The notes: a model not told the origin generated them from the sequence alone. A DNA stretch of 64,000 bases from an uncultured Gammaproteobacteria bacterium (GCA_964645605.1 CAZYCE010000002.1:67256-131255); one strand, 5' to 3'; positions 11,019-64,000 are shown, counted from the stretch's first letter. Numbers and translations: made by a program.

Positions 11019-11026
11019 TAGATTAG

Positions 11027-11824: not shown

Positions 11825-11879
11825 ATAGTTATTAACTATCTATATCATTTTACACCCCTTATGCAAGCCGGTTGTCAAT

Positions 11880-13655: not shown

Positions 13656-13666
13656 ATTTTGAGTAA

Positions 13667-15932: not shown

Positions 15933-15951
15933 TCTGATAATTGGTATTGTA

Positions 15952-17661: not shown

Positions 17662-17662
17662 A

Positions 17663-17995: not shown

Positions 17996-17999
17996 ATTG

Positions 18000-47615: not shown

Positions 47616-49029
47616 ATTGTTTACGGGTTAAGATTACCACACCGTCCACTTTTTGGCCGGTTGTATAGTTAGCCATAACATAATTATAAATTTTTTCGGG
47701 AATGTATGAGGATAGACCGAAATTTGTATAAGGCTTAAAAACAATCAATTTAGGAGGGTTTTCCTGTAAATCCGCAATCATCTTTTCCTGAATGCCCGGT
47801 ATTTCCATATACCAGGAAAGTTGAGGAATCCAAGGGTCCGTCGAAGGAAGTGTGTTTGTAAGGGCGTAGATATTGTCCCACCAGTTCATTACAAATATCG
47901 GGTCCCCGGAGGATGTGTTGTATTTTACATAATCGGCGACCTCGACGACATCTTTCTCATAGAACCTTGTCCCTTCATTGAAATTTCGGATAAAGAAGCT
48001 CCCAAGAATATATAGGTTTCCCAGAATATAAATTGGGATAAAAATTTTAATAAAAAGATTTCTTTTATCTTTAAAGGACTCGATGCCAAGTGCCGTAGCA
48101 ATTGCCAAATAGGGAATCGCCGGCTGAAAATGAAAATATTCAAATCGGGGGTAAGCCCCAAGAGCGCCAGCTATGGCCCAAACCAACAGATTAATATTTT
48201 TCTTGCCGGTTTTTAAAATCAAAGGAATAAAAATCAGAAACGGAAAGACAGCAACACAGAGGGCTTTCAAATCGGGAAGTTGAATCTGTCCTTGAGCTTT
48301 GGGAAGGATAAAAACTCCGAATTTTACGGCCCAGTTCCAAAAATCCGGGAATATCTTCAAAACCTCAAGAATAACTACAAAGGGTACGGCGATCACAAAA
48401 ATTCCAGCTGCAAATTTTAGAATTTTCTTAACCGCCAATCTGTAATGCATTACCTTTTTGTTAAGATAGTGTCTTTGCAAATTAATTATCATCTCAAATA
48501 AAATTGGTATAAGTAACCAGACGGCAGTTTGTTTGGAGATAAAAGCGAGAGCCCAGAAAATACCGGTCCATAGCCAATTTTTGCAGGTGACAAAGTAGAA
48601 TGAGCAAAAGGCTAGAAGACCCATGTAAAGATCAAACCATAAGCCGTTTCCGTCGAAGAACAGCATCCAAACTGCAAAAAAGATAGTCGCCAAAAACGCT
48701 GATTTTTGGTTCCAAATTTTCCTGACAACCCCAAACACCAACCCGTCGGTAAAAAGTATCAAAATCCAGGTAAAAATCTTGAGCTGAAGTATGCCGGTTC
48801 CAAAAACTTTGTAGAACAGGCTCAAGTCAAAAAGCATCAGGGGGGTATGGGCTACGGCGATATCTCTGTAGGGCAGCCATCCTTTTGTAATTAGATACGG
48901 CCAAAGGGTCATTTCCGGCCAAGCGGTAAACTTCAGAACAATAAGAAGTACTAAATGAATTACCGAAATCCCAATTAAAAAAAGGTAGTCTTTACGTTTC
49001 ATCTTTAGTATCCAGCCCTTCCCCACCAA
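47593..49029 (-). CDS. Polytopic membrane protein, GT-C-like (tentative)
   Basis: 478 aa, about 12 TM helices. No soluble catalytic domain is recognisable. Confidence 0.45.
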   Translation of the reverse strand: MVGKGWILKMKRKDYLFLIGISVIHLVLLIVLKFTAWPEMTLWPYLITKGWLPYRDIAVAHTPLMLFDLSLFYKVFGTGILQLKIFTWILILFTDGLVFGVVRKIWNQKSAFLATIFFAVWMLFFDGNGLWFDLYMGLLAFCSFYFVTCKNWLWTGIFWALAFISKQTAVWLLIPILFEMIINLQRHYLNKKVMHYRLAVKKILKFAAGIFVIAVPFVVILEVLKIFPDFWNWAVKFGVFILPKAQGQIQLPDLKALCVAVFPFLIFIPLILKTGKKNINLLVWAIAGALGAYPRFEYFHFQPAIPYLAIATALGIESFKDKRNLFIKIFIPIYILGNLYILGSFFIRNFNEGTRFYEKDVVEVADYVKYNTSSGDPIFVMNWWDNIYALTNTLPSTDPWIPQLSWYMEIPGIQEKMIADLQENPPKLIVFKPYTNFGLSSYIPEKIYNYVMANYTTGQKVDGVVILTRKQYAYSNFE

Positions 49030-49936: not shown

Positions 49937-51223
49937 TTAACCATTTTTATGTCCCCAATAATGCTTAATCACAATCGTCCATGTATAAATGACGAGGATT
50001 GTATTCGTTACTCCTAAAGTTATTGTCGGTCCAAAAACTCCAAATTTCGGAATCAGTAAAAAATTAAGAAGGAATATCGCCGCAACCTGAAAAAAAGAAA
50101 ATGCTCCTATGTAAACAGTCTTTTTCATTGAATAGATAATTGCCGAAACACTTGGCGCTGTAAATAAAAACGGAATTTGTGCTGCAGCAAGTGCCCGGAA
50201 AACAGGAACCGAATCGATATATTTGTCTCCGAACAGGGTAAGAATAAACGGTTTGGCAATTATTATCCATAAAACTACTCCAGCAGCAATCGGAAGAATT
50301 GCCAGGAGGGATTTTAGAATATATTTTTTCTCTGCTTCTTTATTTCCGAATGAGGCAAGACGAGGTGCCAAAACTGCGGAAAAGCTTCCGGAAAGAATTA
50401 TTATAAAAGAAGCCAGACGGGAGGGAATTGAATAGAGACCGGTGGCAAGGGCCCCTGCCATTGTTGCCAGCATCTGGACATCAAGCCTTCCTGAAACTGA
50501 AGAGATAATCCTATTGACCCCAATCCAACCTGAATATTTCAGTAAATTTCTGTATTCGTTCCTTTGAGGTCTTGAGTGGAGAAAATCGCCCTTAACAAAA
50601 AACGCAATCAAGGCAATCTCTACTACAAAACCTGCTCCGAATGCCCAAAAGGCTTTGGACATAGTTAAACCTCCGATTAAATAAAATCCGAGAGCAAAAA
50701 GAAATCTTGCCAGATAAAATGCGTTATCGATTACCGTTGAATGAAGAAATTTCTTCTTTGCCTGCAAAATATAAGGGAAAAACATATCGGGGAAAAGAAA
50801 GATCGGAATAACCGCCGCCCAGAGAGCAATTTTGGGGTCATTTGACGCCAAAAAAGTCTTTGAAACAAAAGGCGCAAATACGGCAACTATTGCGGATATT
50901 GCCAAAACTATAAAAAGTCTTATCAGAAATGATGCTTTTGTGTACTCGTTGGCTTTCTCGTGTTCCCCGCGAGCTGTGTGGCTGGAGACAAAATTTACAG
51001 CACCTGTGGAGATACCAATGTCAGCAAGTGAGGAAAGAATAACTACAAAGTTCAGAACAGCGGAGAAAATTCCGAATTCGGAGATACTCATCGAACGGGC
51101 TGCAAAGAGTGTGAAGAGAAATCCCCAAAAGGAAGAGCCCAGGTTCCCAGCAAAAAGAATAAAAGTATCTTTGGCCGTGGCCGTAAAAAGCATGCCTTTG
51201 ACCATATCGTAATACTTCCGCAT
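49937..51223 (-). CDS. wzx: Wzx-type polysaccharide flippase (MOP superfamily)
   Basis: 428 aa, about 12 TM helices, with the typical Wzx N-terminal pattern. Confidence 0.7.
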   Translation of the reverse strand: MRKYYDMVKGMLFTATAKDTFILFAGNLGSSFWGFLFTLFAARSMSISEFGIFSAVLNFVVILSSLADIGISTGAVNFVSSHTARGEHEKANEYTKASFLIRLFIVLAISAIVAVFAPFVSKTFLASNDPKIALWAAVIPIFLFPDMFFPYILQAKKKFLHSTVIDNAFYLARFLFALGFYLIGGLTMSKAFWAFGAGFVVEIALIAFFVKGDFLHSRPQRNEYRNLLKYSGWIGVNRIISSVSGRLDVQMLATMAGALATGLYSIPSRLASFIIILSGSFSAVLAPRLASFGNKEAEKKYILKSLLAILPIAAGVVLWIIIAKPFILTLFGDKYIDSVPVFRALAAAQIPFLFTAPSVSAIIYSMKKTVYIGAFSFFQVAAIFLLNFLLIPKFGVFGPTITLGVTNTILVIYTWTIVIKHYWGHKNG

Positions 51224-51276: not shown

Positions 51277-51987
51277 ATGAAAATACGCGATTTTGTCTTA
51301 TCTCTTCCCTCCATAATTATAAGTGCGATTTTTCTTTACCTCTATTATTTGGAGTCGTTTAATTACGACAATTTCGTATTTACGACTTTCCACTTTAATT
51401 TAGCACGTTTCTCGTTTATTCCCGGAGTCTTCTGGGCAAGCTGGGCAGTCTACTTTTTGGCAAGAAAGAAAGTAAAACAGGAAATTATAGTTTTGGCTGT
51501 CATTTTTTGCCTTGTCTCAATTCCTTCCGGTGTTCGGTCTTTGGGGATCGTATCTGCAAGGACGGTTCTTACATTTAGGGGAAAGGGTCGTATTGTCCAA
51601 AAATCTATGGAGAAAATGTACGGAAACGACTATAAATTTATGAATTTCGTTAAATCATATTTGCCGGAAAACAAAAATATTGTTCTTATTCTTCCGCCGA
51701 ACACACTCCCATGGAGACACACCGGAAATCCCCAAATTATGAATAGCTATCTTTATCCTGTTACAACCACCAACAGCACACAAAGCGCATCTCCCTATGT
51801 GCTAATTTCGTCTGAAGAAGACGGTGCCGGCTACCACCTTTGGCCGGATTATAAAATACGGACAGAGAAAATTGTTATTTTTAACTGGAATAATAATGAA
51901 CCAACAATAATTGAAAATGCGGATTGGGATCCTAAGGAATGGGAGGATAAAAAACCTTGGGGTTTAATCATAAAAAACAATGAATAA
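51277..51987 (+). CDS. Hypothetical membrane-anchored protein
   Basis: 236 aa. Two N-terminal TM helices and a soluble C-terminal domain. Plus strand. Confidence 0.45.
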   Translation: MKIRDFVLSLPSIIISAIFLYLYYLESFNYDNFVFTTFHFNLARFSFIPGVFWASWAVYFLARKKVKQEIIVLAVIFCLVSIPSGVRSLGIVSARTVLTFRGKGRIVQKSMEKMYGNDYKFMNFVKSYLPENKNIVLILPPNTLPWRHTGNPQIMNSYLYPVTTTNSTQSASPYVLISSEEDGAGYHLWPDYKIRTEKIVIFNWNNNEPTIIENADWDPKEWEDKKPWGLIIKNNE

Positions 51988-53188
51988 TTTAATCGGAGGC
52001 GTTGCACTTTTGTCTCTAGCCGTTCCCGGCTTTTTTATTAATTCGATTATTTTGAAAAAAGAAAGAGCTATCGAATCTTTGGCTCTTTCCTGGCTCACGG
52101 GAAGTGCCGCCTTTACTCTAATTCTTTACTTCTTAAATAGTTTTTTGAAAATACCCCTAAACCTCGCATCCTCCACATCAGTTTTTATAATTCTTACTCT
52201 CGTATTATTTATCATCGCCCGTAAAAACATTGCATTTCCTAAAGTTGAATTTAAAAACAACAAGCTTCTTGTCGGCATTCCGGTAGTTATCGCGGTCTTA
52301 ATGTTTGCCACATCATTTTTCTATCCAGTTATGGATTGGGACGCAATAACACTTTTTGATTTCAGGGCAAGAATATTGGTTAGAGAGGGCTTTCTTACCA
52401 ACGAGATAATAGAAATGCTTTACGGAGGTTACCCAATGTATACGTCCCTTCTTCACTTCTGGACATATATAACAGGGCTTTCCTCACCAATGCCTATCTA
52501 CCCGATTTTTACAATTTCACTTTTTGTCGGAATTTATTTTGCTTTGAAAAAAATATTAACTAAAAACATTTCGCTTTTGATTGCCTCTGCCTGCATTCTC
52601 ACTCCGAGAATCTTTGAGAATTCTTTTATCGCCTACACGAACCTTCCCTACACTGTCTTTGTTACACTTGGAGCTTTGTATATATATCTTTTCGTTAGAG
52701 ACAAAAATTACAGAAGTCTGATTATCGGAATTGCTTTTTCTTTAACAACATTTTGGGTACGCTCGTTTCCTTTTGCCTTAATAAATTTTGCACTTATCTT
52801 TTTAGCGGCACCATACGTCAAAAGATATTCAAAATATTTGGCCGTTGGTTCAATAATTTTATTAATTGCAAGCTATTTTCTCCCTTTCACCCGCGAGGTG
52901 GCAGACTACCTAAAATGGGCAGTGTTTGAATATTATTTCCCCTACTGGATAATTTTTATCGGTATCTTTATATATAAATTGATTAGGAATTCGAAAGACT
53001 GGTTCTGGGCGCTAACTTACATTGGCTACGCATTCGTTACACTCGTTGGTACTTACATTATTGGTAAAACCTGGCCGGGATATTACAAGGCTATTCCCGA
53101 CGCGGTCCAACGGATGACAATGTTTATAAATATCGCAGTGGTGTTATTTGCATCTACTCTCATTAATCCTTCTTCACAAAAAGAATAG
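51980..53188 (+). CDS. Polytopic membrane protein, GT-C-like (tentative)
   Basis: 402 aa, about 11 TM helices. Plus strand. Overlaps the previous gene by 8 nt. Confidence 0.45.
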   Translation: MNNLIGGVALLSLAVPGFFINSIILKKERAIESLALSWLTGSAAFTLILYFLNSFLKIPLNLASSTSVFIILTLVLFIIARKNIAFPKVEFKNNKLLVGIPVVIAVLMFATSFFYPVMDWDAITLFDFRARILVREGFLTNEIIEMLYGGYPMYTSLLHFWTYITGLSSPMPIYPIFTISLFVGIYFALKKILTKNISLLIASACILTPRIFENSFIAYTNLPYTVFVTLGALYIYLFVRDKNYRSLIIGIAFSLTTFWVRSFPFALINFALIFLAAPYVKRYSKYLAVGSIILLIASYFLPFTREVADYLKWAVFEYYFPYWIIFIGIFIYKLIRNSKDWFWALTYIGYAFVTLVGTYIIGKTWPGYYKAIPDAVQRMTMFINIAVVLFASTLINPSSQKE

Positions 53189-53214: not shown

Positions 53215-54525
53215 TCACTCAATTATATTAAGACCCTTCAGATCATAATACCCGGCAACGCATGAAGCTACCCATCCGTTATTATCCGAAAAATTATCCA
53301 GCCCCCCAACGGATTTAATATTGTGAATAGTCGGTAAATTTTTAACTTCTTCATCCCAAGATATGGCGTAGTTTTTAACTTCCGTTCTGACTTTACTCCA
53401 ATCTTTCCAAACCGAAACACCCACTAGGCTGGAGAAAACAATATTTAATATTATGAATATCCAAGATATTTTTGAGAGAAACTTTTTATTTAATAAATTG
53501 TTTAAAAGAGTCACTAAACAGACTGAGAAAATAAAGAAACAATACAATATCAAGCTGGTTATTATAAAAAGAGTTCTTTCCGGAGGGATAATGCTCATCG
53601 AATAGTAGCCCGATCCCATTACCGCCATCGTAACAGATACCGAAGCCAGCGCCGTTATCAGCATTATATATATTATTTTCTTGGATCTAACAATAAATTT
53701 TCGAGAGAATAAATATGTTGCGGTCAAAATAACAACAAGAGAAGACAAAAAAGTCTTGATTGACAAAAATCTCAATAGATACCATTTTGTTGCCAGGATG
53801 GTAGATTTCATAACAAACAATAAACTTTCCGGTTTTGTTACAGAGAGACCCCTTGCAGCATTACCGGGGGCAAGTAACATGATTATCAGTGAGATTGTAA
53901 TTCCGGCGATTCCTGCAACAGCAATTTTCATCTTTTCTTTTTTGTCTTTCGGATTGATGACTAAAACTATTCCCAATACAAAAATCAAAAAGACCAATGC
54001 GGCGACGGCAAACGATTCGGAAAATCCTCCGGCAACGAACATAAAAAGAAATGGAATGATTACTCCCCTCTTTTCTTTTTTGGAAACTAAACGAACGAGA
54101 AATAAATTTAAAAATATAAAGGGAATTGTGTAATTAAGTGACCCCGTCTGCCAATAAAACGACTGAATGATATTTGGTGCATTTATTAAAGTGAGTATTA
54201 CAAAAAGTGATGCAAAAATAACATTTGAAAAGAAAAGTGGAATGGTAGTTAGGACCAAACCGGCTAACAAAAGTATCGGAAGAACTCTTATGACCCATGG
54301 CCCAATGAGTTCAAAAAAATCAAGGAAAGCGATATAAGAATACCGGCCCGTCCAAGTTTTCCACCAACCAATTTGTGCACCAAAATAACCATTGTCTCGC
54401 AAAAATGTCGCTGAGCAAAAATCGTCCACCCAATAACGAACGTATGGAACAGTTGTAACAATATAATATAGTCCCATACCAATCAGAATAATGTATGGCA
54501 AATAAATAAGAAGTTTTTTAATCAT
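53215..54525 (-). CDS. Polytopic membrane protein, GT-C-like (tentative)
   Basis: 436 aa. Multiple TM helices and a C-terminal soluble tail. Confidence 0.45.
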   Translation of the reverse strand: MIKKLLIYLPYIILIGMGLYYIVTTVPYVRYWVDDFCSATFLRDNGYFGAQIGWWKTWTGRYSYIAFLDFFELIGPWVIRVLPILLLAGLVLTTIPLFFSNVIFASLFVILTLINAPNIIQSFYWQTGSLNYTIPFIFLNLFLVRLVSKKEKRGVIIPFLFMFVAGGFSESFAVAALVFLIFVLGIVLVINPKDKKEKMKIAVAGIAGITISLIIMLLAPGNAARGLSVTKPESLLFVMKSTILATKWYLLRFLSIKTFLSSLVVILTATYLFSRKFIVRSKKIIYIMLITALASVSVTMAVMGSGYYSMSIIPPERTLFIITSLILYCFFIFSVCLVTLLNNLLNKKFLSKISWIFIILNIVFSSLVGVSVWKDWSKVRTEVKNYAISWDEEVKNLPTIHNIKSVGGLDNFSDNNGWVASCVAGYYDLKGLNIIE

Positions 54526-56095
54526 TCTTTATTAGGAGTATTGCACCGGCATCCTGTTTCTCGTAATTATCGGCCGAACTGACCTTATACATTCCTTTCA
54601 ATGTGTATTCTCTTGCGATCTCGCCGCATCCTTCGCATGTCCATTTTTTGGAATCGGTAGGATTTTCAAAAATCATTCTCCAACTATCCCCCATATAATA
54701 ATTGGCGTCATCTATCAAATAACTTGTAAGATAAATTGCATCAAAAGGAATTTTGCCTGTTGCAGGATCTAACAACTGTTTCGGTTCCAACGGAAACCAC
54801 ACGGTTTTTCTTTCTCCGTACCAGCTTCCCCAAGTATCAAGATTGGTAATAACAACCTGGCCAGAATCCGTGTTCTCTTTCAGAATCCTGCTTAGTTCAG
54901 CATATACAGGGGGCTTGCCCGTATTGTGTATCTTTGCTTCAAACCTCGAGTCAAGCATGAATATACCTATTGTTTGACCAACGCCGAATAATAGAATTAT
55001 GAATAATGAATTAAGAATTATGCAGGCCTGTTTTGAAATTGAAAATTTTGATTTTGATAATTGATTGGTAATTGGTAATTGAAAATTGGTTATTAGTTCC
55101 ACGATTGTCCCCACCGCAATTATGTAAACAAATGGAATTACCGGATGAATATAACGGTAGAACGGAATACTGGCCGCCGTTACAATAAGTGTCACAACGA
55201 TCATGAACATGCTCGCCCATTTAAAAGCATGCCGTTCCGAAGCCTTTGGCGAAGGACGGAATAATCCAATGATAAACAAAGCTAAGAAATATGGGTTAAT
55301 GATTTGCGGAAGTGCTTTGTAAAAATTGTAGAGATTGTAAAAGATATTTTTCAGTGTTGGTACTATTCCCCCACCGGCAACAACTGCCGCTCCTCTTAAG
55401 GCATCTGATGCCGTAGAACTTTGGTTGAAAGACGATCCTATTCCCCTACCGATGATGGAATACAAAAAGTATTTTCCGGAAAGAGGCCTCAATACAAAAT
55501 AATCAATCAAAACTCCAAAAAACAAAATACAAATAAAGGAAATTACGGCTTTTTTAGGCTTAAAGTTTACAAGAAGCCAGAAAAGAATTATCCCCGCAAT
55601 ATAAATAAATGCCTGAGGACGGGTAAAATACATCAGAACCAAAAACAAAACTGTTACCGCATTCGTCCATTTTTTCTTGAGGGACGCAAAATAAAGTCCG
55701 GCAACTATTTCAAAAATAAATGGTGACTCGGAAGCACCGTTTGTAGCATAGTGAATAATGTCATAGCTTGCCCCAACTGCCAACGTCGACAAAGCTCCAA
55801 CCAATTTGCTATTAAATATTTTCTTTCCAAGAAGGTAGACAAAAACTAATGTCAGAATGAAATAGAAAAACGACGTAGCAATTACTGCAAAATCAGTAAC
55901 TCCAAAAATCTTAAAAAACGCAGCAATTGACACCGGCATTACAGGTGGTGTCCAAAGAGCAGAAAAGATAGCACTTTTAATTAATTCAAAAATATTTGAT
56001 GACCAAAATGAAAAATTGCTTCCAAATCCTAACCCATTAATTAAATTCCTGGCAAAATCCGCAAATTTGGCTGCATCAGAAAGGTCAAGATACAT
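54518..56095 (-). CDS. GT-C fold polytopic glycosyltransferase (ArnT/PMT_2-like)
   Basis: 525 aa. LDLSDAAKFADFARNLINGLGF is the ArnT-family N-terminus. About 11 TM helices and a C-terminal periplasmic-type domain. Confidence 0.5.
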   Translation of the reverse strand: MYLDLSDAAKFADFARNLINGLGFGSNFSFWSSNIFELIKSAIFSALWTPPVMPVSIAAFFKIFGVTDFAVIATSFFYFILTLVFVYLLGKKIFNSKLVGALSTLAVGASYDIIHYATNGASESPFIFEIVAGLYFASLKKKWTNAVTVLFLVLMYFTRPQAFIYIAGIILFWLLVNFKPKKAVISFICILFFGVLIDYFVLRPLSGKYFLYSIIGRGIGSSFNQSSTASDALRGAAVVAGGGIVPTLKNIFYNLYNFYKALPQIINPYFLALFIIGLFRPSPKASERHAFKWASMFMIVVTLIVTAASIPFYRYIHPVIPFVYIIAVGTIVELITNFQLPITNQLSKSKFSISKQACIILNSLFIILLFGVGQTIGIFMLDSRFEAKIHNTGKPPVYAELSRILKENTDSGQVVITNLDTWGSWYGERKTVWFPLEPKQLLDPATGKIPFDAIYLTSYLIDDANYYMGDSWRMIFENPTDSKKWTCEGCGEIAREYTLKGMYKVSSADNYEKQDAGAILLIKND

Positions 56096-56118: not shown

Positions 56119-57498
56119 TCACTTTTTGATTTTCTGTATTAAAAACAAAAATTTTCCCCTTTTAGAAAGAGGGATACTTCTAACATATTTAAACTTGACT
56201 TTTGTATCGGCTAATTTAAGAAACTTCTCATTAATTTCAAGTTTATCTTTTAGACCAAATAGCCTATCTGGAATTATTTTTATAATCACGATGCCTTTTT
56301 CTGACTGAATTATTTGCCATTTTTTGATGTTTCTAAAAGCTTTATAATGTTGACCAAAAACTAAGGCGGTTAAGGGTGTCTTGTCGCCACTTGAACCATA
56401 TATGTAATCTTGTGTTCTCCCTTGCAGTTCCCTCAGACAAACAACTCCGTTCTTTAGTCCTCCGTAAACTGCAATGTCACCGGTTCTATATCTAATAAAT
56501 GGCATAGCATAATTATAAAAGCCTGTTACCACAATCTCTCCTGCTGAACCCTTTTTAACATGCTTGCCCTTCTCATCCAGAATTTCAGTGAAACCATAAA
56601 ATGGTGAGCATAGATATTTGGTAGAATTTTTTAGGGTATAAGCAAAAACACAAGCTTCAGTATGGCCATATTGAAAAAATATATTTGTATCTAAAACTCT
56701 TGCTATTTTCTTAATTTGCCAATCAAAAGCCTGCTCAGATGTTAAAATTACACCTTTAATTTTGAATGAGATTTTGGCCTTCATAGAGTCGACATATCGT
56801 ACAAAATCGTAAATGGTTGATGGATACCCACGTATTAAACTTGGACATACTTTCAAAAAATCGGCTAAATACTGTGACTTGTTTTTATTTTTAAAATATA
56901 GAGATGAATATGTTTTTTTACCGAATGGTAAGTTGTGTTTATTACTTATCCAAAAAATATTTCTATTTCGCAGTTTAGAAGGAACAGAGCTACCGCTAAA
57001 AGAAATAAAAGAATCTCCTTTTCTATAACCAATATATTTGGCATAATATTCCTGATGAATATCATCTATTATCCCCACTTTGGGAGATAAAAAAAGTCGC
57101 AGTGGTTCGCCTGTGCTCCCACCTGTATATCCCTCATAGTATTCCCACGGCCTCAGACTTTTGGTTATTAATTCATCTTCATGTTTTCTAATTATTGTTT
57201 TATCAAGTATGGGAATACTATCAAAATTACTTAAATTATTTAAGTCAAGATTCACTTTTTGGAAAATTCTTTTATAGTATTCGTTATTTTTATACGCAAA
57301 ACGACAAAGATTAATTAATTTCTTTTTTTGAAAAGATTCAATACGCACTCTGATATCCTTGCCATTCTCAATGTCCTTAAGCCCCCTTTTAATTTTTAAT
57401 ATCTCTCTTTTGTAAAAAAATCTTAATCCTAACTTTGTAAAACATATCACATCTAACAGAGAATTTTGTTTCAAAAAATCTATAAATCTTCTATTCAT
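56119..57498 (-). CDS. PaaK/CapK-like adenylate-forming enzyme (phenylacetate-CoA ligase family, COG1541-like)
   Basis: 459 aa. YTGGSTGEPLR (AMP-binding motif I), YGHTEA and YRTGD (motif II-like). Confidence 0.65.
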   Translation of the reverse strand: MNRRFIDFLKQNSLLDVICFTKLGLRFFYKREILKIKRGLKDIENGKDIRVRIESFQKKKLINLCRFAYKNNEYYKRIFQKVNLDLNNLSNFDSIPILDKTIIRKHEDELITKSLRPWEYYEGYTGGSTGEPLRLFLSPKVGIIDDIHQEYYAKYIGYRKGDSFISFSGSSVPSKLRNRNIFWISNKHNLPFGKKTYSSLYFKNKNKSQYLADFLKVCPSLIRGYPSTIYDFVRYVDSMKAKISFKIKGVILTSEQAFDWQIKKIARVLDTNIFFQYGHTEACVFAYTLKNSTKYLCSPFYGFTEILDEKGKHVKKGSAGEIVVTGFYNYAMPFIRYRTGDIAVYGGLKNGVVCLRELQGRTQDYIYGSSGDKTPLTALVFGQHYKAFRNIKKWQIIQSEKGIVIIKIIPDRLFGLKDKLEINEKFLKLADTKVKFKYVRSIPLSKRGKFLFLIQKIKK

Positions 57499-57541
57499 TC
57501 CTTACAAAAAATATCCCTTACTGATATTGGCATATAAATAC

Positions 57542-58768
57542 TTATTGCTCTAATTCCATATTAAAATATTTAAGATATATCTTAACAGTATTATCTATTT
57601 TATATTTGAAATTGTGTTTAGATGCTTTTTCATTAAGCAAGTTGCAAATACAATTAATACATTTTTGATTAGAAGAACCCTCCTCTAATAGATGGTTTCT
57701 ATTAATTTCCGCAGAACCCGTATTGTTGAATGCTAAAACAGTCAAGCCACACGCCAGTGCCTCCAGATTTGCCATGCTTGCATTTTCCATAGCAGAAGTC
57801 ATAAAAAACAAATTGGAAGCACTATAATATTTAGCTAAATTCTCAGGATTTTTTTGATAAGGACGATAAAGAATATTTTTATCTTGTATCTCTTTGTTTG
57901 TTCTACCCAAACAAACAAATAATAAATCCTTGTTATTGCGCAATGAATTGGACACTCTCTTAAATATTTCGAATCTTTTTTTTCTGTCATGTTTATTACC
58001 GCTATAGATACCCAAAATTATTTTTTTGTCTAACGGCAAATTTAGACTTTTTCTTGCAAGTTTTTTGTCTGTCGGGTGAAATATTTTCGTGTCAACACCA
58101 TTTTGAATAACACCCATTTTCTTGTCACCAAAGATATTAGTACTTTCCGCAACACCTTTGAGCCATTTGGAAGGTGAAATAATTCTAAAATTGCTTTCTT
58201 TATAAATATCATGTTTACGTGTCCATAAATATTTCGAGTTATTCCAAAGCATTGGTTGATAGTGATAAATTCCCGAAGTAAAGTGCTTACCATGATTAAA
58301 GTGCTTACATTCAAAACAAAAGCCACAATGAGATGTCATTGACCACATGTCGTGTAGGGTCCAAACAACCGGCTTCCGCTTTGTTACTTCAATTAGCGTA
58401 GATAGTTTAAAATAATGACCATGCAAATTGTGGATGTGAACAATATCCGCCCCCTTAAACCACGGATGATTAATAATTTCGTGTGAGGCTCCAAAATCAA
58501 TATCATTTGAAAAAATAAAAGCTCTCAAGTGCCTGAGGTAGCGCAGAACATTATTCCCGAAAATATTTCGGATGAATTCTGAAAATATGCTTGCTGAGAT
58601 TACATCGACATCCGACGATTTTGTATATTTATAACCAACCAGATATCTAACCTGGTTCCCTTCTTTTCTAATTTTATTTCCCAATTGCCAAGCTAAATTT
58701 GCTGCCCCACCTATTGCGTCAGTTGTATTTATAATTAATATTTTCATAATATTATTTTTTTGCAACAA
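57542..58768 (-). CDS. Glycosyltransferase family 4-like (GT-B)
   Basis: 408 aa. MENASMANLEALACGLTVLAF (E-x7-E). Confidence 0.6.
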   Translation of the reverse strand: MLQKNNIMKILIINTTDAIGGAANLAWQLGNKIRKEGNQVRYLVGYKYTKSSDVDVISASIFSEFIRNIFGNNVLRYLRHLRAFIFSNDIDFGASHEIINHPWFKGADIVHIHNLHGHYFKLSTLIEVTKRKPVVWTLHDMWSMTSHCGFCFECKHFNHGKHFTSGIYHYQPMLWNNSKYLWTRKHDIYKESNFRIISPSKWLKGVAESTNIFGDKKMGVIQNGVDTKIFHPTDKKLARKSLNLPLDKKIILGIYSGNKHDRKKRFEIFKRVSNSLRNNKDLLFVCLGRTNKEIQDKNILYRPYQKNPENLAKYYSASNLFFMTSAMENASMANLEALACGLTVLAFNNTGSAEINRNHLLEEGSSNQKCINCICNLLNEKASKHNFKYKIDNTVKIYLKYFNMELEQ

Positions 58769-59492
58769 TGAAGATATGCGTTGAGATCAACCTATTACGA
58801 ATACCAATTTTGGCTAGTAGTAGACCTACAAAATTTAACCCATATGTAAGAATTCTCAAAAATGGAGACCTTTCAGAAATAGATTCTAGCCAAACCAGTT
58901 TGCCACTTACATAAAATACTTTATACGATTCGGGTTTTAACGACCCCACAATTTTTTTCAAACTTTGGATGTTCATAGAATTTAGATTATGAGTCTTAAT
59001 ATTATCTGGATCAAACAAAATTTGGTATGCTCCATTTAAACCCAAAAAATTTGGCAATCCGATTATCATGCTTCCACCCTGAGAAACCAGTTGCCAATGT
59101 TTATTGATTACATCATTTGTATCGTTAAAATGCTCAATAAAACCCAGAGAAAAAACAAGATCGTATTTTTTAGATGTTTTATATTTAAAAAAGTCAGTTT
59201 CGGAAATATCTATATTGCCACAAGGCAAACCATTTACTTCAACATTTTTACCAATAATCCCCCGATCTACCACAAAATCAAGAATTGTCGATTTGTAACC
59301 AAAATATTTACTAAAATAGATGGCATAGTTCCCAGGAAAACCTCCAATTTCAATCATGTTTTTGTAATTTTTATTTTTTAGATACTTTTCAAAAATATTG
59401 TTAAAGCTAAAAATTCTTGAAATTTTTTGTACATGCGGCTTGCTACTCCAATATTTTTTCCAAAAAGCGATGTCTGTAAGTTCTTTGTTCAT
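58752..59492 (-). CDS. Class I SAM-dependent methyltransferase
   Basis: 246 aa. MIEIGGFPGNY (motif I) and DLVFSLGFIEHF (motif II/III). Confidence 0.65.
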   Translation of the reverse strand: MNKELTDIAFWKKYWSSKPHVQKISRIFSFNNIFEKYLKNKNYKNMIEIGGFPGNYAIYFSKYFGYKSTILDFVVDRGIIGKNVEVNGLPCGNIDISETDFFKYKTSKKYDLVFSLGFIEHFNDTNDVINKHWQLVSQGGSMIIGLPNFLGLNGAYQILFDPDNIKTHNLNSMNIQSLKKIVGSLKPESYKVFYVSGKLVWLESISERSPFLRILTYGLNFVGLLLAKIGIRNRLISTHIFIVAKK

Positions 59493-60388
59493 TATAAATT
59501 TCCAAACATGGATTTCGCTAACAAGGATAATACTACAAACGGATTCATGTATACATTTCTCTCCGTAACCAAATCAGCCTTTTTATTTTCAACTATGTTG
59601 TTCGGATGTTTCAATGGAAAATTTATTTTTTCAGTTTTCATCCCCATTGTTCTTATCTTAAAAAAAGTATGAGTCGCCTGTTTCCCGTACCCGGTATTTG
59701 AAACAAGATTTACTTTCGGAATGATGGTCAATTTTTGATTTTTAAACGCAGTATATGACCAAATGTATGCCCAGGAATTAATTTCACCTTGATAAACCAA
59801 TTTAAATATTTGTTTCCAATACATTACTGAAAATATATTTTGAAAATAATTTTGGAAACTCTTATCTTTACTAATAACGAGCCAGTCTTTCATTGAGTCG
59901 TCATATAACTTCCAACCTCTCCTCCATGTTGCCCATCCCCAAGAATGTACATATTTTGAAAAATAGTAACTTTCTTTAATTTTTGTCTTTCCAAATTGAA
60001 AATTATTTCCGGAAATAGATATTATTTCATCACTATCTTTATACTTTTCAAGAAGTTCGTCGCAAAACTTGAAAAAAGATTCATCGATTGTCAAATCATC
60101 CTCCAGAATGATGGCTCTATCAACACTCTTAAACACCCAATCGAGCCCATTTACCATATTTCTTCTTAAACCATTATTTATTTTAGAATACCTTTTATGT
60201 ATCGTACAATTCCAGTCTATTTTTTCAACTTCGTTCCTGGCCTGTCTACATTTGCCGAAATCCGTATCATCTTTTGGTCCATCAGCAATAACATAAATAG
60301 TTTTAGGTTTAATATTCCGTAGAACATCAATAATTTTTTTCGTCAGGTATGACCTATTATAAATAATTAAAACAATTGGGGCTTTCAT
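59492..60388 (-). CDS. Putative GT-A fold glycosyltransferase (DxD-like ILEDDL)
   Basis: 298 aa. IVLIIYNRSYL, ILEDDL and HSWGWATWRRGW. Confidence 0.45.
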   Translation of the reverse strand: MKAPIVLIIYNRSYLTKKIIDVLRNIKPKTIYVIADGPKDDTDFGKCRQARNEVEKIDWNCTIHKRYSKINNGLRRNMVNGLDWVFKSVDRAIILEDDLTIDESFFKFCDELLEKYKDSDEIISISGNNFQFGKTKIKESYYFSKYVHSWGWATWRRGWKLYDDSMKDWLVISKDKSFQNYFQNIFSVMYWKQIFKLVYQGEINSWAYIWSYTAFKNQKLTIIPKVNLVSNTGYGKQATHTFFKIRTMGMKTEKINFPLKHPNNIVENKKADLVTERNVYMNPFVVLSLLAKSMFGNL

Positions 60389-60417
60389 TTGGTTATTACG
60401 CTATCCAAAATTATCTT

Positions 60418-61806
60418 TTAATATTTTATTCCACCTGATAACTTTCTATAAAAATTAAAAATTACCAAAAAGGTCGATATCAGAACCAATACTTTCCAGA
60501 ATATACTAAACTTATCCAGAGATCCACCTAGGGCTGAAAAATCTGTATAGGATGATATTAATCTGTAAAATATTGTTCCACCAAAAAATATTAATAAATA
60601 AAACAAACAAAACAATAACAACAAAGACACTTCCTTTCCCATTTTTAATTTTGTTAAATATAGAAAAACACATATAAAAAGAATTGGTATCAGCATATCT
60701 AATATCACAGAGTTAAAAACCATTACAAAGGAGTCTGATATTGTTTTTAGACTAAAATTATATAAATAGGCAGACAGTTTGGTCACAAAACTAAACTGAG
60801 ATATGCGCAACTTATCAAATTCAAAACTATAATAGGATAAATATTTTCCGGATGCATATCCCACAAAATAGTTAGAGGTTAAAAATATAAGAAGACCAAC
60901 CAAATAACGTTTTTTAAATAACAATCTCTTAACCAGCAGATAAATTATTAAGAACACAAGTGCAGCCATCCATATGGGTTCATTTCGGGTAAATCTGCTA
61001 AAGACGAAAAACAAGCTACCCAAAACCAGGTAATTTATTTTTTCCCTAGATAACCATTTAACTAAATAAAGAGTGCCTAAAACCAAAAAGGTTGACTGAA
61101 TTAAATTTGATGATACACGTACTGACCAATCGTAAAATAACGGATAAAAAGAAATCAGAAATGCTAAAGCTAAGCCAACTTTTTTATTCGTTAAATTTTT
61201 AGCAAATGCGTAAACCCCAAAAATCAGAGATAAAAATATCAAAGTATAAATGAATTTGGGGTTGGTACTTCCAGCAACATATAAAATTGAATGCATGAGA
61301 GAAGTCAAAAGAGGATAAGAAATGTCATAAAAGGACCGGGCGGAAAAAAATATACTTTGGGCGGTAACAATTAATTTTGCTCTATAGTCATACATCTGGA
61401 CAGCGTCCCACATCCAGATGGGCCAATATAAATTTCTAATAATAGAGGTCAGCAAGAAAAATCCTATGCCACCAACAGAAACCTTCTCAAATAAGTCTAA
61501 ATTTTTAAAAAATTTGATGGGGAAAAAATCATGTAATGAATATTTGTTCTTTAATATAATTTTATTGACCAGAATCAAAATTAAATTCCCCGTTACCAAG
61601 AAAATAAAAACGTTTTGAAAATTAAATTTATAACCGATAAAGCCAAGAAGAAAAAGCCCAAAAGTTGTGAGTCCAATTCCCAACATAAAACCTGAGGATA
61701 ATTCTTCCGCTAATCCAGACTTAATTCTAAACAATTTAAAAAAATTAATTCCCGAAAACAGAATCATTAAAAGAAACAATGTTTGTTTTAAAATATTTAA
61801 TATCAT
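60418..61806 (-). CDS. Polytopic membrane protein (GT-C or O-antigen-polymerase-like, tentative)
   Basis: 462 aa, about 12 TM helices. Very AT-rich. Confidence 0.45.
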   Translation of the reverse strand: MILNILKQTLFLLMILFSGINFFKLFRIKSGLAEELSSGFMLGIGLTTFGLFLLGFIGYKFNFQNVFIFLVTGNLILILVNKIILKNKYSLHDFFPIKFFKNLDLFEKVSVGGIGFFLLTSIIRNLYWPIWMWDAVQMYDYRAKLIVTAQSIFFSARSFYDISYPLLTSLMHSILYVAGSTNPKFIYTLIFLSLIFGVYAFAKNLTNKKVGLALAFLISFYPLFYDWSVRVSSNLIQSTFLVLGTLYLVKWLSREKINYLVLGSLFFVFSRFTRNEPIWMAALVFLIIYLLVKRLLFKKRYLVGLLIFLTSNYFVGYASGKYLSYYSFEFDKLRISQFSFVTKLSAYLYNFSLKTISDSFVMVFNSVILDMLIPILFICVFLYLTKLKMGKEVSLLLLFCLFYLLIFFGGTIFYRLISSYTDFSALGGSLDKFSIFWKVLVLISTFLVIFNFYRKLSGGIKY

Positions 61807-62816
61807 TTTTTTATTTCAATAATTCCCCACACATTTTTCCCTCTAAAATCATCGGGGTTGTAATTGCCATAGAAAACATTTTGCACATAAGTTCCATTGT
61901 CTTGTTGAATGAGATAGACAATCTTATCTGATTTTACGGGAAAATCCGGCCAAATGTAATTTACTTGAGAAGGGCCATCATATATCGGGTGCAAATATCC
62001 TTTGGCAAGAACTATGTATTCATAGTTGTCGTTGTCCATTTCGGAACCGTAATTTATAAGTGTTCTGTCAGTCAAGAAATACCTGAAATATTCAATTCTG
62101 CCGTCAACACTATGCGGTGCAATATCTACAGGAAGTAAAATTGAGTTCCCGGAATTGGTATTATCCCCAATCAGTGAAATGTATCTATATAGAAGTCCCC
62201 ACTTAATCGTCATCTTTTCCTGATATGAATAATTAAGATGGGTAAAAATAAATATCATATCTGACGCTGCATCACTGAATGTTATATAAAATTTGCTACC
62301 TACGAAAACCAATATTAGAACTGCGGCTACACTTACAGGAAGTATATTTTTCTTATTTTTAATTCCATATATGTCTTTTGCGGTTTTAATTATAGTTTCT
62401 GGCCTAACCATCTGTATCAAAAGAAGAAAAAAACTTAAGAGAACTAAATTAAAAAAAATCCTGGGCTGAATATGAAAGGTTACAAAGGAATAATTGGAGT
62501 ATTTTGCCGAATTTAAAAAAAACATAACAAAATAGAAAGCAGTAATTGGAATAAAAAATACAGTGTTGAGTCTCAAAAGCAACTTTTCTAAAACGGTGGG
62601 TTTGTAATTTTTATTTTCTATCCTAAGGAAAAGGATTAAAAATGCCGAAAAGATAGAAACAGCTAGGAAAAAACCGGTTGGCAGGAAAATATGCTTACTC
62701 AAAAATCCGGAATATTTATATGACTCTATCAAAAGGAAAAATCCAGAAACACTAATCAGATACGGAAAGATAGTCTTATTTAAGGTTAGTATTTTTCTAA
62801 AAAATTTATTTTTCAC
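61803..62816 (-). CDS. Membrane protein with C-terminal extracytoplasmic domain (hypothetical)
   Basis: 337 aa. About 6 TM helices followed by a soluble domain. Overlaps its neighbours by 4 nt at each end. Confidence 0.4.
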   Translation of the reverse strand: MKNKFFRKILTLNKTIFPYLISVSGFFLLIESYKYSGFLSKHIFLPTGFFLAVSIFSAFLILFLRIENKNYKPTVLEKLLLRLNTVFFIPITAFYFVMFFLNSAKYSNYSFVTFHIQPRIFFNLVLLSFFLLLIQMVRPETIIKTAKDIYGIKNKKNILPVSVAAVLILVFVGSKFYITFSDAASDMIFIFTHLNYSYQEKMTIKWGLLYRYISLIGDNTNSGNSILLPVDIAPHSVDGRIEYFRYFLTDRTLINYGSEMDNDNYEYIVLAKGYLHPIYDGPSQVNYIWPDFPVKSDKIVYLIQQDNGTYVQNVFYGNYNPDDFRGKNVWGIIEIKK

Positions 62817-64000
62817 TTAGTAATTTCATTAGTTGGATAGAAACCAGCTTTGATGTTCCCATATTGAATCATTTTAAATCCTGATAGATATGGTGTACAA
62901 GGTAATTGTGAGTTTCCACAACGATCACCATTTACTGGAGTCCAAACATAAAAGGACTGATCCGGATAATTAATGATAAACGGCTTTACTAAAGTACTTT
63001 CTTCTTTTTGAACAGTAAACAACTCCGGTTCTTTCTTCAAATCCACGGCATTTAGAAGGTAGCCGGATATTGTAAATATAAATAATAAAACAATTAGATT
63101 TTTGAAATGAGCATATTTAAGGAAATCAGTTAAGAATGGTGGCAAAATTAATGAAATAACAACATAAATATATATACCCATAAACCTAAAATCCGGAGCC
63201 GTTATAAATGTGTATAAAAGGGATGCCAAATTCATAAATATTAAAAAGTCGATCTTTTTAATATTATTTATTACATTTTGATTCTCTTTAAATTTATACC
63301 TAGAAAAAAAATAGGCAAACGTCAGTGGGATTACGCTAAATAAATAATATAAATTAGGCTTATTATTATTGAACCAATTTATAAACCAACCCCAAAAACC
63401 AACATTTAAAGAACTTAGATATTTTGGACCCGGTAATCTTGCCCAAGCCTTAACAACATCATTAAAATTTCTGGCGATTTCTATCGGCACTTGCCACTGA
63501 AAATGAACACCAAGAATTGGCAATGGAAAAAAGGGCCAGCCAGATAAAATTAGGTTACGGAGTATGAAACCAAGAAAGAACGCCAAGGTAAATAGTAAAA
63601 ATATTATATTTTTCTTTGATGATAAAAGTATACTTTTTAACTCAATTATAACAAACAAAAAAAATAAAATTAAACCTACAAAATAAGAATATTTCGTTGT
63701 AGCAGCCATGGCAAATAATGGAACCGCCAATATTAAATTTTCCTTATCTAAAAGTAGAGTATAGAAAGCAGATACCAAGACAAAGATCGTCAATCCAAAA
63801 TCGGTTGAAAGAGAATTAATCTGACCAACAAACATAGACATAACTAAAAGAGAAAAAAGTCCAAATATACGAATTAGGTTATTTTTATTTTTACTAAACA
63901 AGAATGTAATTATCTGAAAAGCAAAAACTACAAATAAAAGAGAATTCACTACATGAGTGGAAGCATTTGTAAAAACACCATGACCCATAATCGCCGCCAA
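62813..64000 (-). CDS. Membrane protein with C-terminal extracytoplasmic domain (hypothetical). The 5' end is truncated by the window edge
   Basis: More than 395 aa. Multiple TM helices then a soluble C-terminal domain. Its architecture resembles the downstream paralog at 61803-62816. Confidence 0.4.
   Translation of the reverse strand: MAAIMGHGVFTNASTHVVNSLLFVVFAFQIITFLFSKNKNNLIRIFGLFSLLVMSMFVGQINSLSTDFGLTIFVLVSAFYTLLLDKENLILAVPLFAMAATTKYSYFVGLILFFLFVIIELKSILLSSKKNIIFLLFTLAFFLGFILRNLILSGWPFFPLPILGVHFQWQVPIEIARNFNDVVKAWARLPGPKYLSSLNVGFWGWFINWFNNNKPNLYYLFSVIPLTFAYFFSRYKFKENQNVINNIKKIDFLIFMNLASLLYTFITAPDFRFMGIYIYVVISLILPPFLTDFLKYAHFKNLIVLLFIFTISGYLLNAVDLKKEPELFTVQKEESTLVKPFIINYPDQSFYVWTPVNGDRCGNSQLPCTPYLSGFKMIQYGNIKAGFYPTNEITK

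What the first reader, a model, noticed from the sequence alone, without database searches (positions are those of the whole stretch)
56119..60388. Adenylating enzyme + methyltransferase + GT module in the AT-rich block
A PaaK/CapK-like ligase (YTGGSTGEPLR), a GT4, a class I SAM methyltransferase (IEIGGFPG) and a DxD GT-A (ILEDDL; WGWATWRRGW) are packed head-to-tail, with the methyltransferase overlapping the GT4 by 17 nt. CapK-type enzymes in capsule loci are thought to activate a carboxylic or amino acid for transfer onto a sugar. Together with O-methylation, this predicts a chemically decorated terminal residue, the kind of non-stoichiometric modification that defines serotypes.
Basis: inference. 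Interest (0 to 1): 0.55.

Follow-up and report, generated by a model that had tools for sequence, protein, structure and literature searches.

The report
Surface-glycan decoration genes with CapK ligase
Four neighbouring genes in a very large cell-surface sugar-polymer locus encode two sugar-adding enzymes, a methyl-adding enzyme and an ATP-using ligase that probably makes an amide link on the polymer; this is a fairly ordinary, variable decoration cassette rather than a new kind of system.

Summary
All four genes are real and sit where the finding says, on the minus strand.

- **GT-A (59492-60388):** a glycosyltransferase whose model best matches GnT-I (family GT13). Its EDD motif is invariant.
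- **Methyltransferase (58752-59492):** a class I SAM enzyme. Whether it methylates O, N or a carboxyl group is unknown.
- **GT4 (57542-58747):** carries a conserved EX7E motif.
- **CapK ligase (56119-57498):** has every catalytic motif of the ANL adenylating enzymes, including the C-terminal lysine.

The reported 17-nt overlap comes from choosing a TTG start. The ATG at 58747 fits the orthologues and leaves a 4-nt gap.

The four genes are not one evolutionary unit. GT-A, methyltransferase and GT4 form a trio, conserved in that order, in three other lineages that lack CapK within 10 kb. One of these lineages is Pacebacteria. CapK looks like an addition. Even so, this CapK subfamily lies within 3 kb of a related GT-A in 9 of 21 loci from several phyla, and in 0 of 60 loci with more distant CapK relatives.

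The only functional precedent is Vibrio cholerae VpsH, which is needed for a glycine amide on a uronic acid. The likeliest role here is amide formation on the glycan. The substrates are unknown: the window encodes no uronic-acid or amino-sugar pathway.

Verdict: a new member of a known kind, of modest interest.

The parts
59492..60388 (-). GT-A fold glycosyltransferase, GnT-I (GT13)-like, of the family often annotated 'HlpA-like / glycosyltransferase family 2'; 298 aa; EDD motif at aa 96-98 and WGWATWRR at aa 150-157
   Evidence: More than 5000 homologues. E96, D98 and W150-G151-W152-A153-W155-R157 are invariant in 40 sequences. AlphaFold model pLDDT 92.9. Foldseek best hits are GnT-I 1fo8/1foa at E = 3e-10, then POMGnT1 and GnT-II. 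In the local Pfam copy there is only a weak GT25 hit below threshold.
58752..59492 (-). Class I SAM-dependent methyltransferase, 246 aa, from a small family (21 hits; the one named member is from Pacebacteria, a candidate phyla radiation (CPR) group); atom specificity unknown
   Evidence: Motif I EIGGFPG and YDLVFSLGFIEH are invariant or nearly so in 19 sequences. Pfam Methyltransf_23/12/11 hits fall below gathering scores, but several homologues carry these domains in the precomputed hits. Model pLDDT 93.6. Foldseek gives more than 1200 class I methyltransferase hits, best E = 3e-11. The start codon overlaps the GT-A stop by 1 nt.
57542..58747 (-). GT4 (GT-B fold) glycosyltransferase, 401 aa from ATG 58747 (not TTG 58768); EX7E motif E321-E329
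   Evidence: Pfam Glyco_transf_4 at 51.6 bits and Glycos_transf_1 at 47.3 bits, both above gathering scores. The public gene call uses the ATG. It aligns with orthologues from L085, L087 and L090 at 37-39% identity in the multiple alignment (40-41% by tblastn), with a shared N-terminus and EX7E.
56119..57498 (-). CapK-family adenylate-forming (ANL, PaaK-related) ligase, 459 aa; P-loop at aa 125-132, YGHTE 277-281, TGD 339-341, GRTQD 360-364, G448-K449
   Evidence: Pfam CapK_C (PF27533) in the precomputed hits. NCBIfam hits to PaaK-like models fall far below the equivalog cut-offs. Against PDB PaaK 4r1l, E = 1.3e-8 for the single sequence and 3e-27 for the profile. All catalytic motifs are invariant in 31 homologues.
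60418..61806 (-). Context: upstream PMT_2-type (GT-C) polytopic membrane glycosyltransferase, same strand, 29-nt gap, also AT-rich
   Evidence: Pfam PMT_2 at 33.8 bits; 29.2% GC.
54518..56095 (-). Context: downstream PMT_2-type (GT-C) membrane glycosyltransferase, same strand, 23-nt gap; GC returns to 37.6% here
   Evidence: Pfam PMT_2 at 31.4 bits.
49937..51223 (-). Context: Wzx-type (MOP) flippase of the same glycan locus; in relatives the cassette and CapK lie next to this gene
   Evidence: Pfam Polysacc_synt at 85.2 bits. 74% identical to the L002 flippase, which lies about 1.7 kb downstream of the L002 CapK genes with one opposite-strand gene between. A Wzx gene lies near CapK in 9 of 21 loci.

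Best explanation
The four genes are a low-GC, variable decoration cassette inside a very large surface-polysaccharide locus. The locus runs from about 27.9 kb to beyond 64 kb. It has a phosphoglycosyl transferase, a Wzx flippase and a Wzy-like protein, so it looks Wzx/Wzy-type. It also encodes many GT4, GT2 and PMT_2 membrane glycosyltransferases. The genome is probably from Patescibacteria (the candidate phyla radiation, CPR).

Two cytoplasmic glycosyltransferases each add one sugar to the lipid-linked glycan. One is an inverting GnT-I-like GT-A that probably uses a UDP-HexNAc-type donor. The other is a GT4. A class I SAM methyltransferase methylates one residue or substituent.

The CapK-family ligase uses ATP to adenylate a carboxylate and forms an amide. 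The likeliest reaction joins a carboxyl-bearing sugar of the glycan to an amino acid or small amine, as proposed for V. cholerae VpsH.

Shown: gene presence, folds, intact catalytic motifs and conserved gene neighbourhoods. Inferred: substrates, order of steps, amide chemistry and co-transcription.
For: - **Families and motifs:**
- **Glycan-locus context:** Bac_transf, GDP-mannose pyrophosphorylase, Wzy_C, Wzx and at least 6 PMT_2 genes.
- **Conserved trio:** GT-A (52-56% identity), then methyltransferase (51-57%), then 1-2 extra methyltransferases, then GT4 (40-41%), in three other lineages: L085/L086, L087-L089 (Pacebacteria) and L090.
- **GT-A with methyltransferase:** a methyltransferase lies directly beside the GT-A in all six other lineages examined, that is the three above plus L091-L093.
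- **CapK with GT-A:** a related GT-A lies within 3 kb of this CapK subfamily in 9 of 21 loci, from Paenibacillus, Prevotella, Ignavibacterium, Lentisphaerae and Erysipelotrichaceae among others. It lies near none of 60 loci with more distant CapK relatives.
- **Hints of carboxylate chemistry:** a UDP-sugar dehydrogenase follows CapK and GT-A in two Paenibacillus loci. In L093 an asparagine-synthase-like amidotransferase sits directly upstream of the closest GT-A homologue. In L090 two such genes sit upstream with one gene between. From general knowledge, asparagine-synthase-type enzymes also work by adenylating a carboxylate. The glutamine-dependent amidotransferases WbmC, WbmI and WbmZ are the candidate uronamide-forming enzymes of the Bordetella O antigen (PMC2615507).
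- **Functional precedent:** VpsH, a PaaK/CapK-like protein, is required for the glycine amide on GulNAcA of the lipid-linked VPS disaccharide (PMC13463779).
- **Spacing:** same strand, with spacings of -1 to 43 nt.
Against: - No UDP-sugar dehydrogenase, aminotransferase, NAD-dependent epimerase, PGA_cap or polysaccharide deacetylase homologue was found anywhere in the 64-kb window (Pfam scans; tblastn). The carboxylate substrate is therefore not identified.
- I could not compare the ligase directly with the VpsH sequence.
- VpsH itself has only genetic evidence, and its chemistry is unresolved.
- The closest GT-A/methyltransferase/GT4 cassettes work without CapK, so the ligase may act on another residue of the glycan.
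- Some related CapK loci carry FdtA and DegT amino-sugar genes instead of a dehydrogenase. That fits the opposite direction of amide formation.
- There are no expression data.
Confidence: 0.5

Rival explanations
1. The ligase adenylates a free carboxylic acid or amino acid and N-acylates an amino sugar. The sugar would be either a nucleotide sugar or already on the lipid-linked glycan. This is the opposite polarity to VpsH.
For: In the closest relative, L002 (65% identical CapK, two copies), one CapK directly follows FdtA and a DegT aminotransferase, which make a 3-amino-3,6-dideoxyhexose. The same block of GT-A, MetW-type methyltransferase, unknown gene, FdtA and DegT, with CapK alongside, recurs in the Ignavibacterium locus L020. 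A polysaccharide deacetylase sits beside CapK in L014, L015 and L016. From general knowledge, ANL enzymes that form amides directly from a free acid are known.
Against: The window has no aminotransferase or deacetylase. The only functional precedent, VpsH, points to activation of the sugar carboxylate. A UDP-sugar dehydrogenase or an asparagine-synthase-like gene sits near the GT-A in other loci.
Confidence: 0.2
2. The ligase is a true acyl-CoA ligase like PaaK. It supplies an unusual acyl-CoA to a separate acyltransferase that decorates the glycan, for example the hexapeptide-repeat transferase at 40371-40994.
For: The best solved relatives are phenylacetate-CoA ligases and 2-hydroxyisobutyryl-CoA synthetase. 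A hexapeptide acyltransferase is encoded in the locus.
Against: Scores against the PaaK equivalog models are far below the cut-offs, 36 bits against 646. Only the N-terminal domain and hinge align to PaaK, and the C-terminal domain is the separate Pfam family CapK_C. In all 21 close loci examined the gene lies among polysaccharide genes. The acyltransferase is 15 kb away.
Confidence: 0.12
3. The four genes are merely co-located in a mosaic variable region. Each acts on a different residue or step of a complex glycan, and there is no shared 'decorated terminal residue'.
For: The trio recurs without CapK. The window's CapK is most similar to the L002 copies, whose partner GT-As are only 31-35% identical to the window GT-A. 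The low-GC block and the fragmented assemblies fit a recombining variable region.
Against: A cross-phylum CapK and GT-A adjacency, with a median distance of 16 bp, suggests functional coupling between at least these two genes.
Confidence: 0.18

Closest known systems
VpsH (V. cholerae VPS cluster; PaaK/CapK-like protein needed for the glycine amide on L-GulNAcA; PMC13463779)
   Same: A PaaK-related, CapK-like adenylating enzyme encoded in a Wzx/Wzy-type polysaccharide locus. The modification is a dispensable decoration made on the lipid-linked intermediate.
   Different: The VPS cluster encodes the uronic-acid pathway (VpsA/VpsB), while the window encodes none. [quoted passage not shown] Here the partner is a GnT-I-like GT-A.
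Phenylacetate-CoA ligase PaaK (PDB 4r1l, 9s3l, 2y27, 2y4o)
   Same: ANL N-terminal domain, P-loop, YGxTE, TGD and hinge. The family profile matches 4r1l at E = 3e-27.
   Different: About 20-25% identity. The C-terminal domain is not aligned (CapK_C). NCBIfam PaaK equivalog cut-offs are missed by a wide margin. The genomic context is glycan synthesis, not aromatic catabolism.
GnT-I / POMGnT1 (GT13) and GnT-II (GT16), eukaryotic inverting beta-1,2-GlcNAc transferases
   Same: GT-A fold. An EDD motif is present. Top Foldseek hits have E = 3e-10 to 1e-9 and TM about 0.5-0.57.
   Different: 12-17% identity. No stem or transmembrane region. A bacterial family with an invariant WGWATWRR motif. Donor and acceptor are unknown.
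Asparagine-synthase-like / glutamine-dependent amidotransferases of O-antigen loci (e.g. Bordetella WbmC/WbmI/WbmZ, candidate uronamide-forming enzymes; PMC2615507)
   Same: They would do the same kind of job, amidating a sugar carboxylate, and they sit upstream of the GT-A in L093 (directly) and L090 (one gene between).
   Different: An unrelated fold and family. They deliver ammonia from glutamine rather than an amino acid. No such gene is in the window.

Membership tests
ANL adenylate-forming superfamily (PaaK-related, CapK family) | P-loop motif (T/S)(S/G)G(S/T)TGxP | tested here: met
   TGGSTGEP at aa 125-132. T125, G126, G127, S128, G130 and P132 are invariant in 31 homologues. The motif aligns to the PaaK P-loop.
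ANL adenylate-forming superfamily (PaaK-related, CapK family) | YGxTE, TGD, the GRxxD hinge and the C-terminal catalytic Lys | tested here: met
   YGHTE 277-281, TGD 339-341, GRTQD 360-364 and G448-K449. All are invariant columns.
ANL adenylate-forming superfamily (PaaK-related, CapK family) | Pfam CapK_C (PF27533) C-terminal domain | tested here: met
   The precomputed Pfam hit is listed for this exact protein and nearly all homologues. The model is absent from the local Pfam copy, so I did not re-score it.
Phenylacetate-CoA ligase PaaK (equivalog) | Score above the NCBIfam equivalog cut-off (TIGR02155, NF041878) | tested here: not met
   36.2 bits against 646.3, and 37.1 against 700.
VpsH-type glycan amino-acid ligase | Sequence orthology to VpsH | not tested
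The link rests on the shared PaaK/CapK-like description in PMC13463779.
VpsH-type glycan amino-acid ligase | A uronic-acid (carboxyl sugar) pathway encoded with it | tested here: not met
   No UDPG_MGDP_dh hit among the scanned window ORFs of at least 150 aa. tblastn with a dehydrogenase from L007 found nothing. The contig extends beyond the window.
VpsH-type glycan amino-acid ligase | ATP-dependent amide formation on a lipid-linked glycan | not testable with these tools
   Needs biochemistry or profiling of lipid-linked intermediates.
GT-A glycosyltransferase, GnT-I (GT13)-like | GT-A Rossmann-like fold | tested here: met
   Model pLDDT 92.9, pTM 0.91. 72 PDB hits at E <= 1e-3; those listed are mostly GT-A glycosyltransferases plus some nucleotidyltransferases, and the top hits are GnT-I, POMGnT1 and GnT-II.
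GT-A glycosyltransferase, GnT-I (GT13)-like | DxD metal/nucleotide-binding motif | tested here: met
   E96-D97-D98. E96 and D98 are invariant and D97 is at least 90% conserved in 40 sequences.
GT-A glycosyltransferase, GnT-I (GT13)-like | Pfam GNT-I (PF03071) at gathering score | tested here: inconclusive
   The window protein gives only a sub-threshold GT25 hit. PF03071 is on record, mostly weak, for a few homologues.
GT4 (GT-B) glycosyltransferase | Glyco_transf_4 and Glycos_transf_1 domains above gathering score, plus EX7E | tested here: met
   51.6 and 47.3 bits against cut-offs of 28.5 and 26.4. E321-x7-E329 is conserved in 4 orthologues.
Class I SAM-dependent methyltransferase | Motif I (E/D)xGxGxG-like and the Rossmann methyltransferase fold | tested here: met
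   EIGGFPG is invariant. Model pLDDT 93.6. More than 1200 PDB methyltransferase hits. The Pfam scores of the window protein itself are below gathering.
   The nearest folds are a mix, with many N-methyltransferases (phosphoethanolamine, coclaurine, plantazolicin, NodS) and carboxyl methyltransferases (Tam, BioC, CmoM). Fold alone does not tell the acceptor atom.
Single operon | Same strand, short gaps and no internal terminator | tested here: inconclusive
   Spacings are 29, -1, 4, 43 and 23 nt. Promoter-like and terminator-like counts equal the shuffled expectation. No RNA data.

The most novel reading that the evidence does not exclude
This CapK subfamily and the GnT-I-like 'HlpA-like' GT-A, often with a PGA_cap protein, may form an unrecognised module found in many phyla. 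The module would install a sugar and then amidate its carboxyl group. The ligase role would be interchangeable with asparagine-synthase-like amidotransferases. In the lineages related to this window, the module would be joined to a methylation cassette, giving a methylated, amide-decorated surface glycan.
Probability: 0.25. Interest if true: 0.5.

Novelty: new member of a known kind. Interest (0 to 1): 0.3.

Why it matters
If the model is right, this cassette helps explain how cell-surface glycans vary in an uncultured bacterium that is probably from the candidate phyla radiation (CPR). It would also extend the newly proposed role of CapK/VpsH-type ligases, amide decoration of polysaccharides, to many phyla. 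The recurring pairing of CapK with a GnT-I-like GT-A gives a concrete two-gene target for biochemical work on a large family (more than 2000 CapK relatives and more than 5000 GT-A relatives) that has no assigned reaction. As a single locus it is ordinary glycan-decoration gene content.

Tried and rejected
- **Co-transcription signals:** promoter and terminator scans over 53-64 kb were at chance level (53 found against 50.9 expected; 4 against 5.9), so they say nothing.
- **RNA features:** no tRNA genes and no Rfam matches in the whole window.
- **Precursor pathway:** Pfam scans of the window's longer ORFs (at least 150 aa) and tblastn with neighbour-derived queries (UDP-sugar dehydrogenase, PGA_cap, DegT, NAD-dependent epimerase, deacetylase) found nothing.
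- **Source organism:** exact look-ups found the proteins only in an unnamed NCBI contig (132 kb) and in Logan assemblies. The CPR assignment is an inference from the names of homologues (Pacebacteria, Woesebacteria) and from the gene content.
- **Sequence beyond 64 kb:** the Logan assemblies are fragmented exactly here.
- **Plasmid collection:** only distant CapK relatives at 22-30% identity.
- **Literature:** nothing on 'HlpA-like'. Apart from the VpsH paper, the CapK searches gave nothing functional.
- **Cys-rich stretch in GT4 (CGFCFEC):** considered as a metal site and rejected, because only one Cys is conserved in orthologues.
- **Unknown neighbour genes in related loci:** Pfam gave nothing usable.

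Full report
**1. Observation**

The window holds four consecutive minus-strand ORFs at 59492-60388, 58752-59492, 57542-58768 and 56119-57498. The exact protein sequences are in public gene calls from an NCBI contig of 132 kb and from Logan assemblies. Their homologues reach E-values of 1e-126 to 1e-202, so these are real genes.

The 'AT-rich block' is also real. The four genes are 31.4% GC and the rest of the window up to 64000 is 30.1%. The housekeeping part and the remainder of the glycan locus are 39.5-41.2%.

One detail does not hold. The 17-nt overlap between the methyltransferase and GT4 needs a TTG start at 58768. The ATG at 58747 is the start of the public gene call (401 aa). It also matches the N-termini of three orthologues. 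That start leaves a 4-nt gap. The only true overlap is 1 nt (TAATG) between the GT-A stop and the methyltransferase start.

**2. What the four proteins are**

*Ligase.* It hits AMP-binding only weakly in the local Pfam copy. It does carry the newer Pfam domain CapK_C in the precomputed annotation. It matches solved phenylacetate-CoA ligases at E = 5e-10 as a single sequence and 3e-27 as a family profile. That match covers the N-terminal domain and hinge only.

In an alignment of 31 homologues from several bacterial phyla, all ANL catalytic motifs are invariant: P-loop T125-P132, G278/E281, T339-G340-D341, G360-R361-D364 and G448-K449. Scores against the curated PaaK equivalog models are far below the cut-offs. 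It is a PaaK relative, not a PaaK.

*GT-A.* This protein has no convincing Pfam hit. It belongs to a family of more than 5000 proteins that are variously named 'glycosyltransferase family 2' or 'hemolytic protein HlpA-like'. E96, D98 and the WGWATWRR block are invariant. A confident model (pLDDT 92.9) matches GnT-I, POMGnT1 and GnT-II best (E = 3e-10 to 1e-6). It is therefore a GnT-I-like GT-A with the same type of EDD motif.

*GT4.* It is a textbook case, with both Pfam domains above threshold and a conserved EX7E.

*Methyltransferase.* It belongs to a small family of 21 hits. The only named member is from Pacebacteria, a candidate phyla radiation (CPR) group. The family has a conserved motif I and a confident class I fold. 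Its nearest solved relatives are a mix that includes many N-methyltransferases and carboxyl methyltransferases. 'O-methylation' is therefore an assumption, not a finding.

**3. Surroundings**

The first 20 kb of the window is a cell-wall gene cluster: Ddl, a racemase, a MurB-Mur ligase fusion, further Mur ligases, GlmU-like, GlmS, MurA, a PBP and MraW.

From about 27.9 kb to the end lies one long glycan locus, almost entirely on the minus strand. It encodes:
- DUF4012, a Bac_transf phosphoglycosyl transferase and GDP-mannose pyrophosphorylase;
- many GT4 and GT2 enzymes, and a hexapeptide acyltransferase;
- a Wzy_C protein and a Wzx flippase;
- a DUF6056 protein and at least six PMT_2-type membrane glycosyltransferases.

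The four genes sit between two PMT_2 genes, about 5 kb upstream of Wzx. No UDP-sugar dehydrogenase, sugar aminotransferase, NAD-dependent epimerase, PGA_cap or deacetylase is encoded anywhere in the window.

**4. Comparative evidence**

(a) *Closest CapK relatives.* The two closest homologues (65% identity) lie on one contig, L002. Its Wzx, GT2, GT4 and membrane-protein genes are 50-74% identical to those of the window. There, one CapK directly follows a related GT-A (31% identical to the window GT-A). The other ends a block that begins with a second related GT-A (35%). That block runs GT-A, methyltransferase, unknown gene, FdtA, DegT, CapK.

(b) *CapK neighbourhoods across genomes.* I scanned one genome per species and kept 80 loci. 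With L002, this gives 21 loci whose CapK is at least 37% identical to the window's.
- A related GT-A is present in 12 of these 21 loci by clustering, at a median of 16 bp from CapK.
- Under a stricter coverage rule it is present in 10 of the 21 loci, and within 3 kb of CapK in 9 of them. It is present in 0 of 60 loci with more distant CapKs.
- PGA_cap proteins occur in 9 of the 21 loci.
- UDP-sugar dehydrogenases (6 of 21 by clustering), DegT, deacetylases and Wzx also recur.

(c) *The trio without CapK.* Seen from the other side, GT-A (52-56% identity), methyltransferase (51-57%) and GT4 (40-41%) occur in the same order in three other lineages. These are L085/L086, the Pacebacteria loci L087-L089, and L090. 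One or two extra methyltransferases are inserted, and there is no CapK within 10 kb.

(d) *More GT-A contexts.* Three further GT-A contexts (L091-L093) also have methyltransferases directly adjacent. In L093 an asparagine-synthase-like amidotransferase lies directly upstream of the GT-A. L090 has two such genes upstream, with a PGA_cap gene between them and the GT-A.

The finding therefore breaks down into a conserved GT-A/methyltransferase/GT4 cassette plus an appended CapK. The GT-A is the hub that links to CapK in other phyla.

**5. Mechanism**

The only functional evidence for a CapK-like protein that I could find is VpsH of V. cholerae. In a vpsI background, deleting vpsH traps a lipid-linked disaccharide that lacks the glycine amide on GulNAcA (PMC13463779). 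The authors note that the activation chemistry is still unresolved.

Three observations fit a model in which the GT-A adds a carboxyl-bearing sugar that is then amidated:
- all adenylation motifs of the ligase are intact;
- a UDP-sugar dehydrogenase follows CapK and GT-A in Paenibacillus;
- asparagine-synthase-like amidotransferases sit near the same GT-A in two loci. From general knowledge these also work by adenylating a carboxylate. The glutamine-dependent amidotransferases WbmC, WbmI and WbmZ are the candidate uronamide-forming enzymes in Bordetella (PMC2615507).

I give this about 0.5.

The FdtA/DegT-linked and deacetylase-linked CapK loci keep the opposite polarity alive, in which a free acid is attached to an amino sugar (0.2). 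A true CoA-ligase role is less likely (0.12). The window gives no clue to the actual substrates. Nothing supports the specific claims of a 'terminal residue' or 'non-stoichiometric' decoration.

**6. Known or new**

All four families are known kinds. CapK-type ligases in polysaccharide loci are long annotated, and one now has a genetic function. The locus is a new member of a known kind.

Two things here go beyond the annotation. I found nothing on either in the few literature searches I ran, so whether they have been described before is open.
- The CapK and GnT-I-like GT-A pairing across phyla.
- The conserved GT-A/methyltransferase/GT4 cassette in the related lineages.

Both are modestly interesting leads for biochemistry. 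Neither is a surprise to a specialist. Interest 0.3.

Noticed in passing
window 3033-5354 (-): A single 773-aa ORF joins MurB domains (FAD_binding_4, MurB_C) to a MurD-like Mur ligase (MurD-like_N, Mur_ligase_M, Mur_ligase_C). It looks like a MurB-Mur ligase fusion inside the cell-wall gene cluster.
   Followed up: no
window 36042-37514, 43257-44603, 45446-46780, 47593-49029, 54518-56095, 60418-61806 (all -): At least six paralogous PMT_2-type (GT-C) polytopic membrane glycosyltransferases lie in one locus. There are also a DUF6056 protein (53215-54525) and several unannotated ORFs whose translations look strongly hydrophobic (51277-53188, 61803-64000). That is an unusually high density of outer-face glycosyltransferases.
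   Followed up: partly
window 56119-64000; Logan contigs L001 and L003: GC falls from about 40% to about 30% exactly at the ligase gene and stays low to the end of the window. Independent Logan assemblies of the same sample break inside GT4 (between 57842 and 58032) and at 61138. A second sample (L004) carries the same methyltransferase with 2 mismatches in 1674 nt. This suggests a low-coverage or strain-variable island.
   Followed up: partly
L002 4648-6030 and 8076-9455; also L009 and L015: Tandem or near-tandem CapK paralogues occur in three related loci. The two L002 copies are each 65% identical to the window ligase.
   Followed up: no
L005, L006, L008, L020, L021 (next to CapK); L085 721-1779 and L090 5896-6978 (next to the GT-A): PGA_cap (CapA-like metallophosphatase-fold) genes repeatedly sit directly beside CapK or directly upstream of the GnT-I-like GT-A. 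They are present in 9 of 21 close CapK loci against 2 of 60 distant ones. Their role in a polysaccharide locus is unexplained. None is in the window.
   Followed up: partly
L093 2150-4057; L090 2804-5903: Asparagine-synthase-like amidotransferases lie upstream of the closest GT-A homologues, directly in L093 and with a PGA_cap gene between in L090. CapK flanks related GT-As in other loci, so these may be alternative amide-forming partners.
   Followed up: partly
L002 533-6030 and L020 about 9839-19000: A block of GT-A, MetW-type methyltransferase, a 329-aa unknown protein, FdtA and DegT, with CapK alongside, is shared between the relative L002 and an Ignavibacterium genome. This suggests transfer of whole decoration cassettes between phyla.
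   Followed up: no
L087 19663-20297 (-): An HTH_3 and Gp49 gene pair, which looks like a toxin-antitoxin pair, lies at the edge of the Pacebacteria glycan locus.
   Followed up: no
window 1-64000: There are no tRNA genes and no Rfam matches at gathering score in the whole 64 kb.
   Followed up: yes
window 58293-58313 (GT4 aa 145-151): A Cys-rich stretch, CGFCFEC, in the GT4 N-terminal domain looks like a metal site. Only one neighbouring Cys (C141) is conserved in orthologues.
   Followed up: yes
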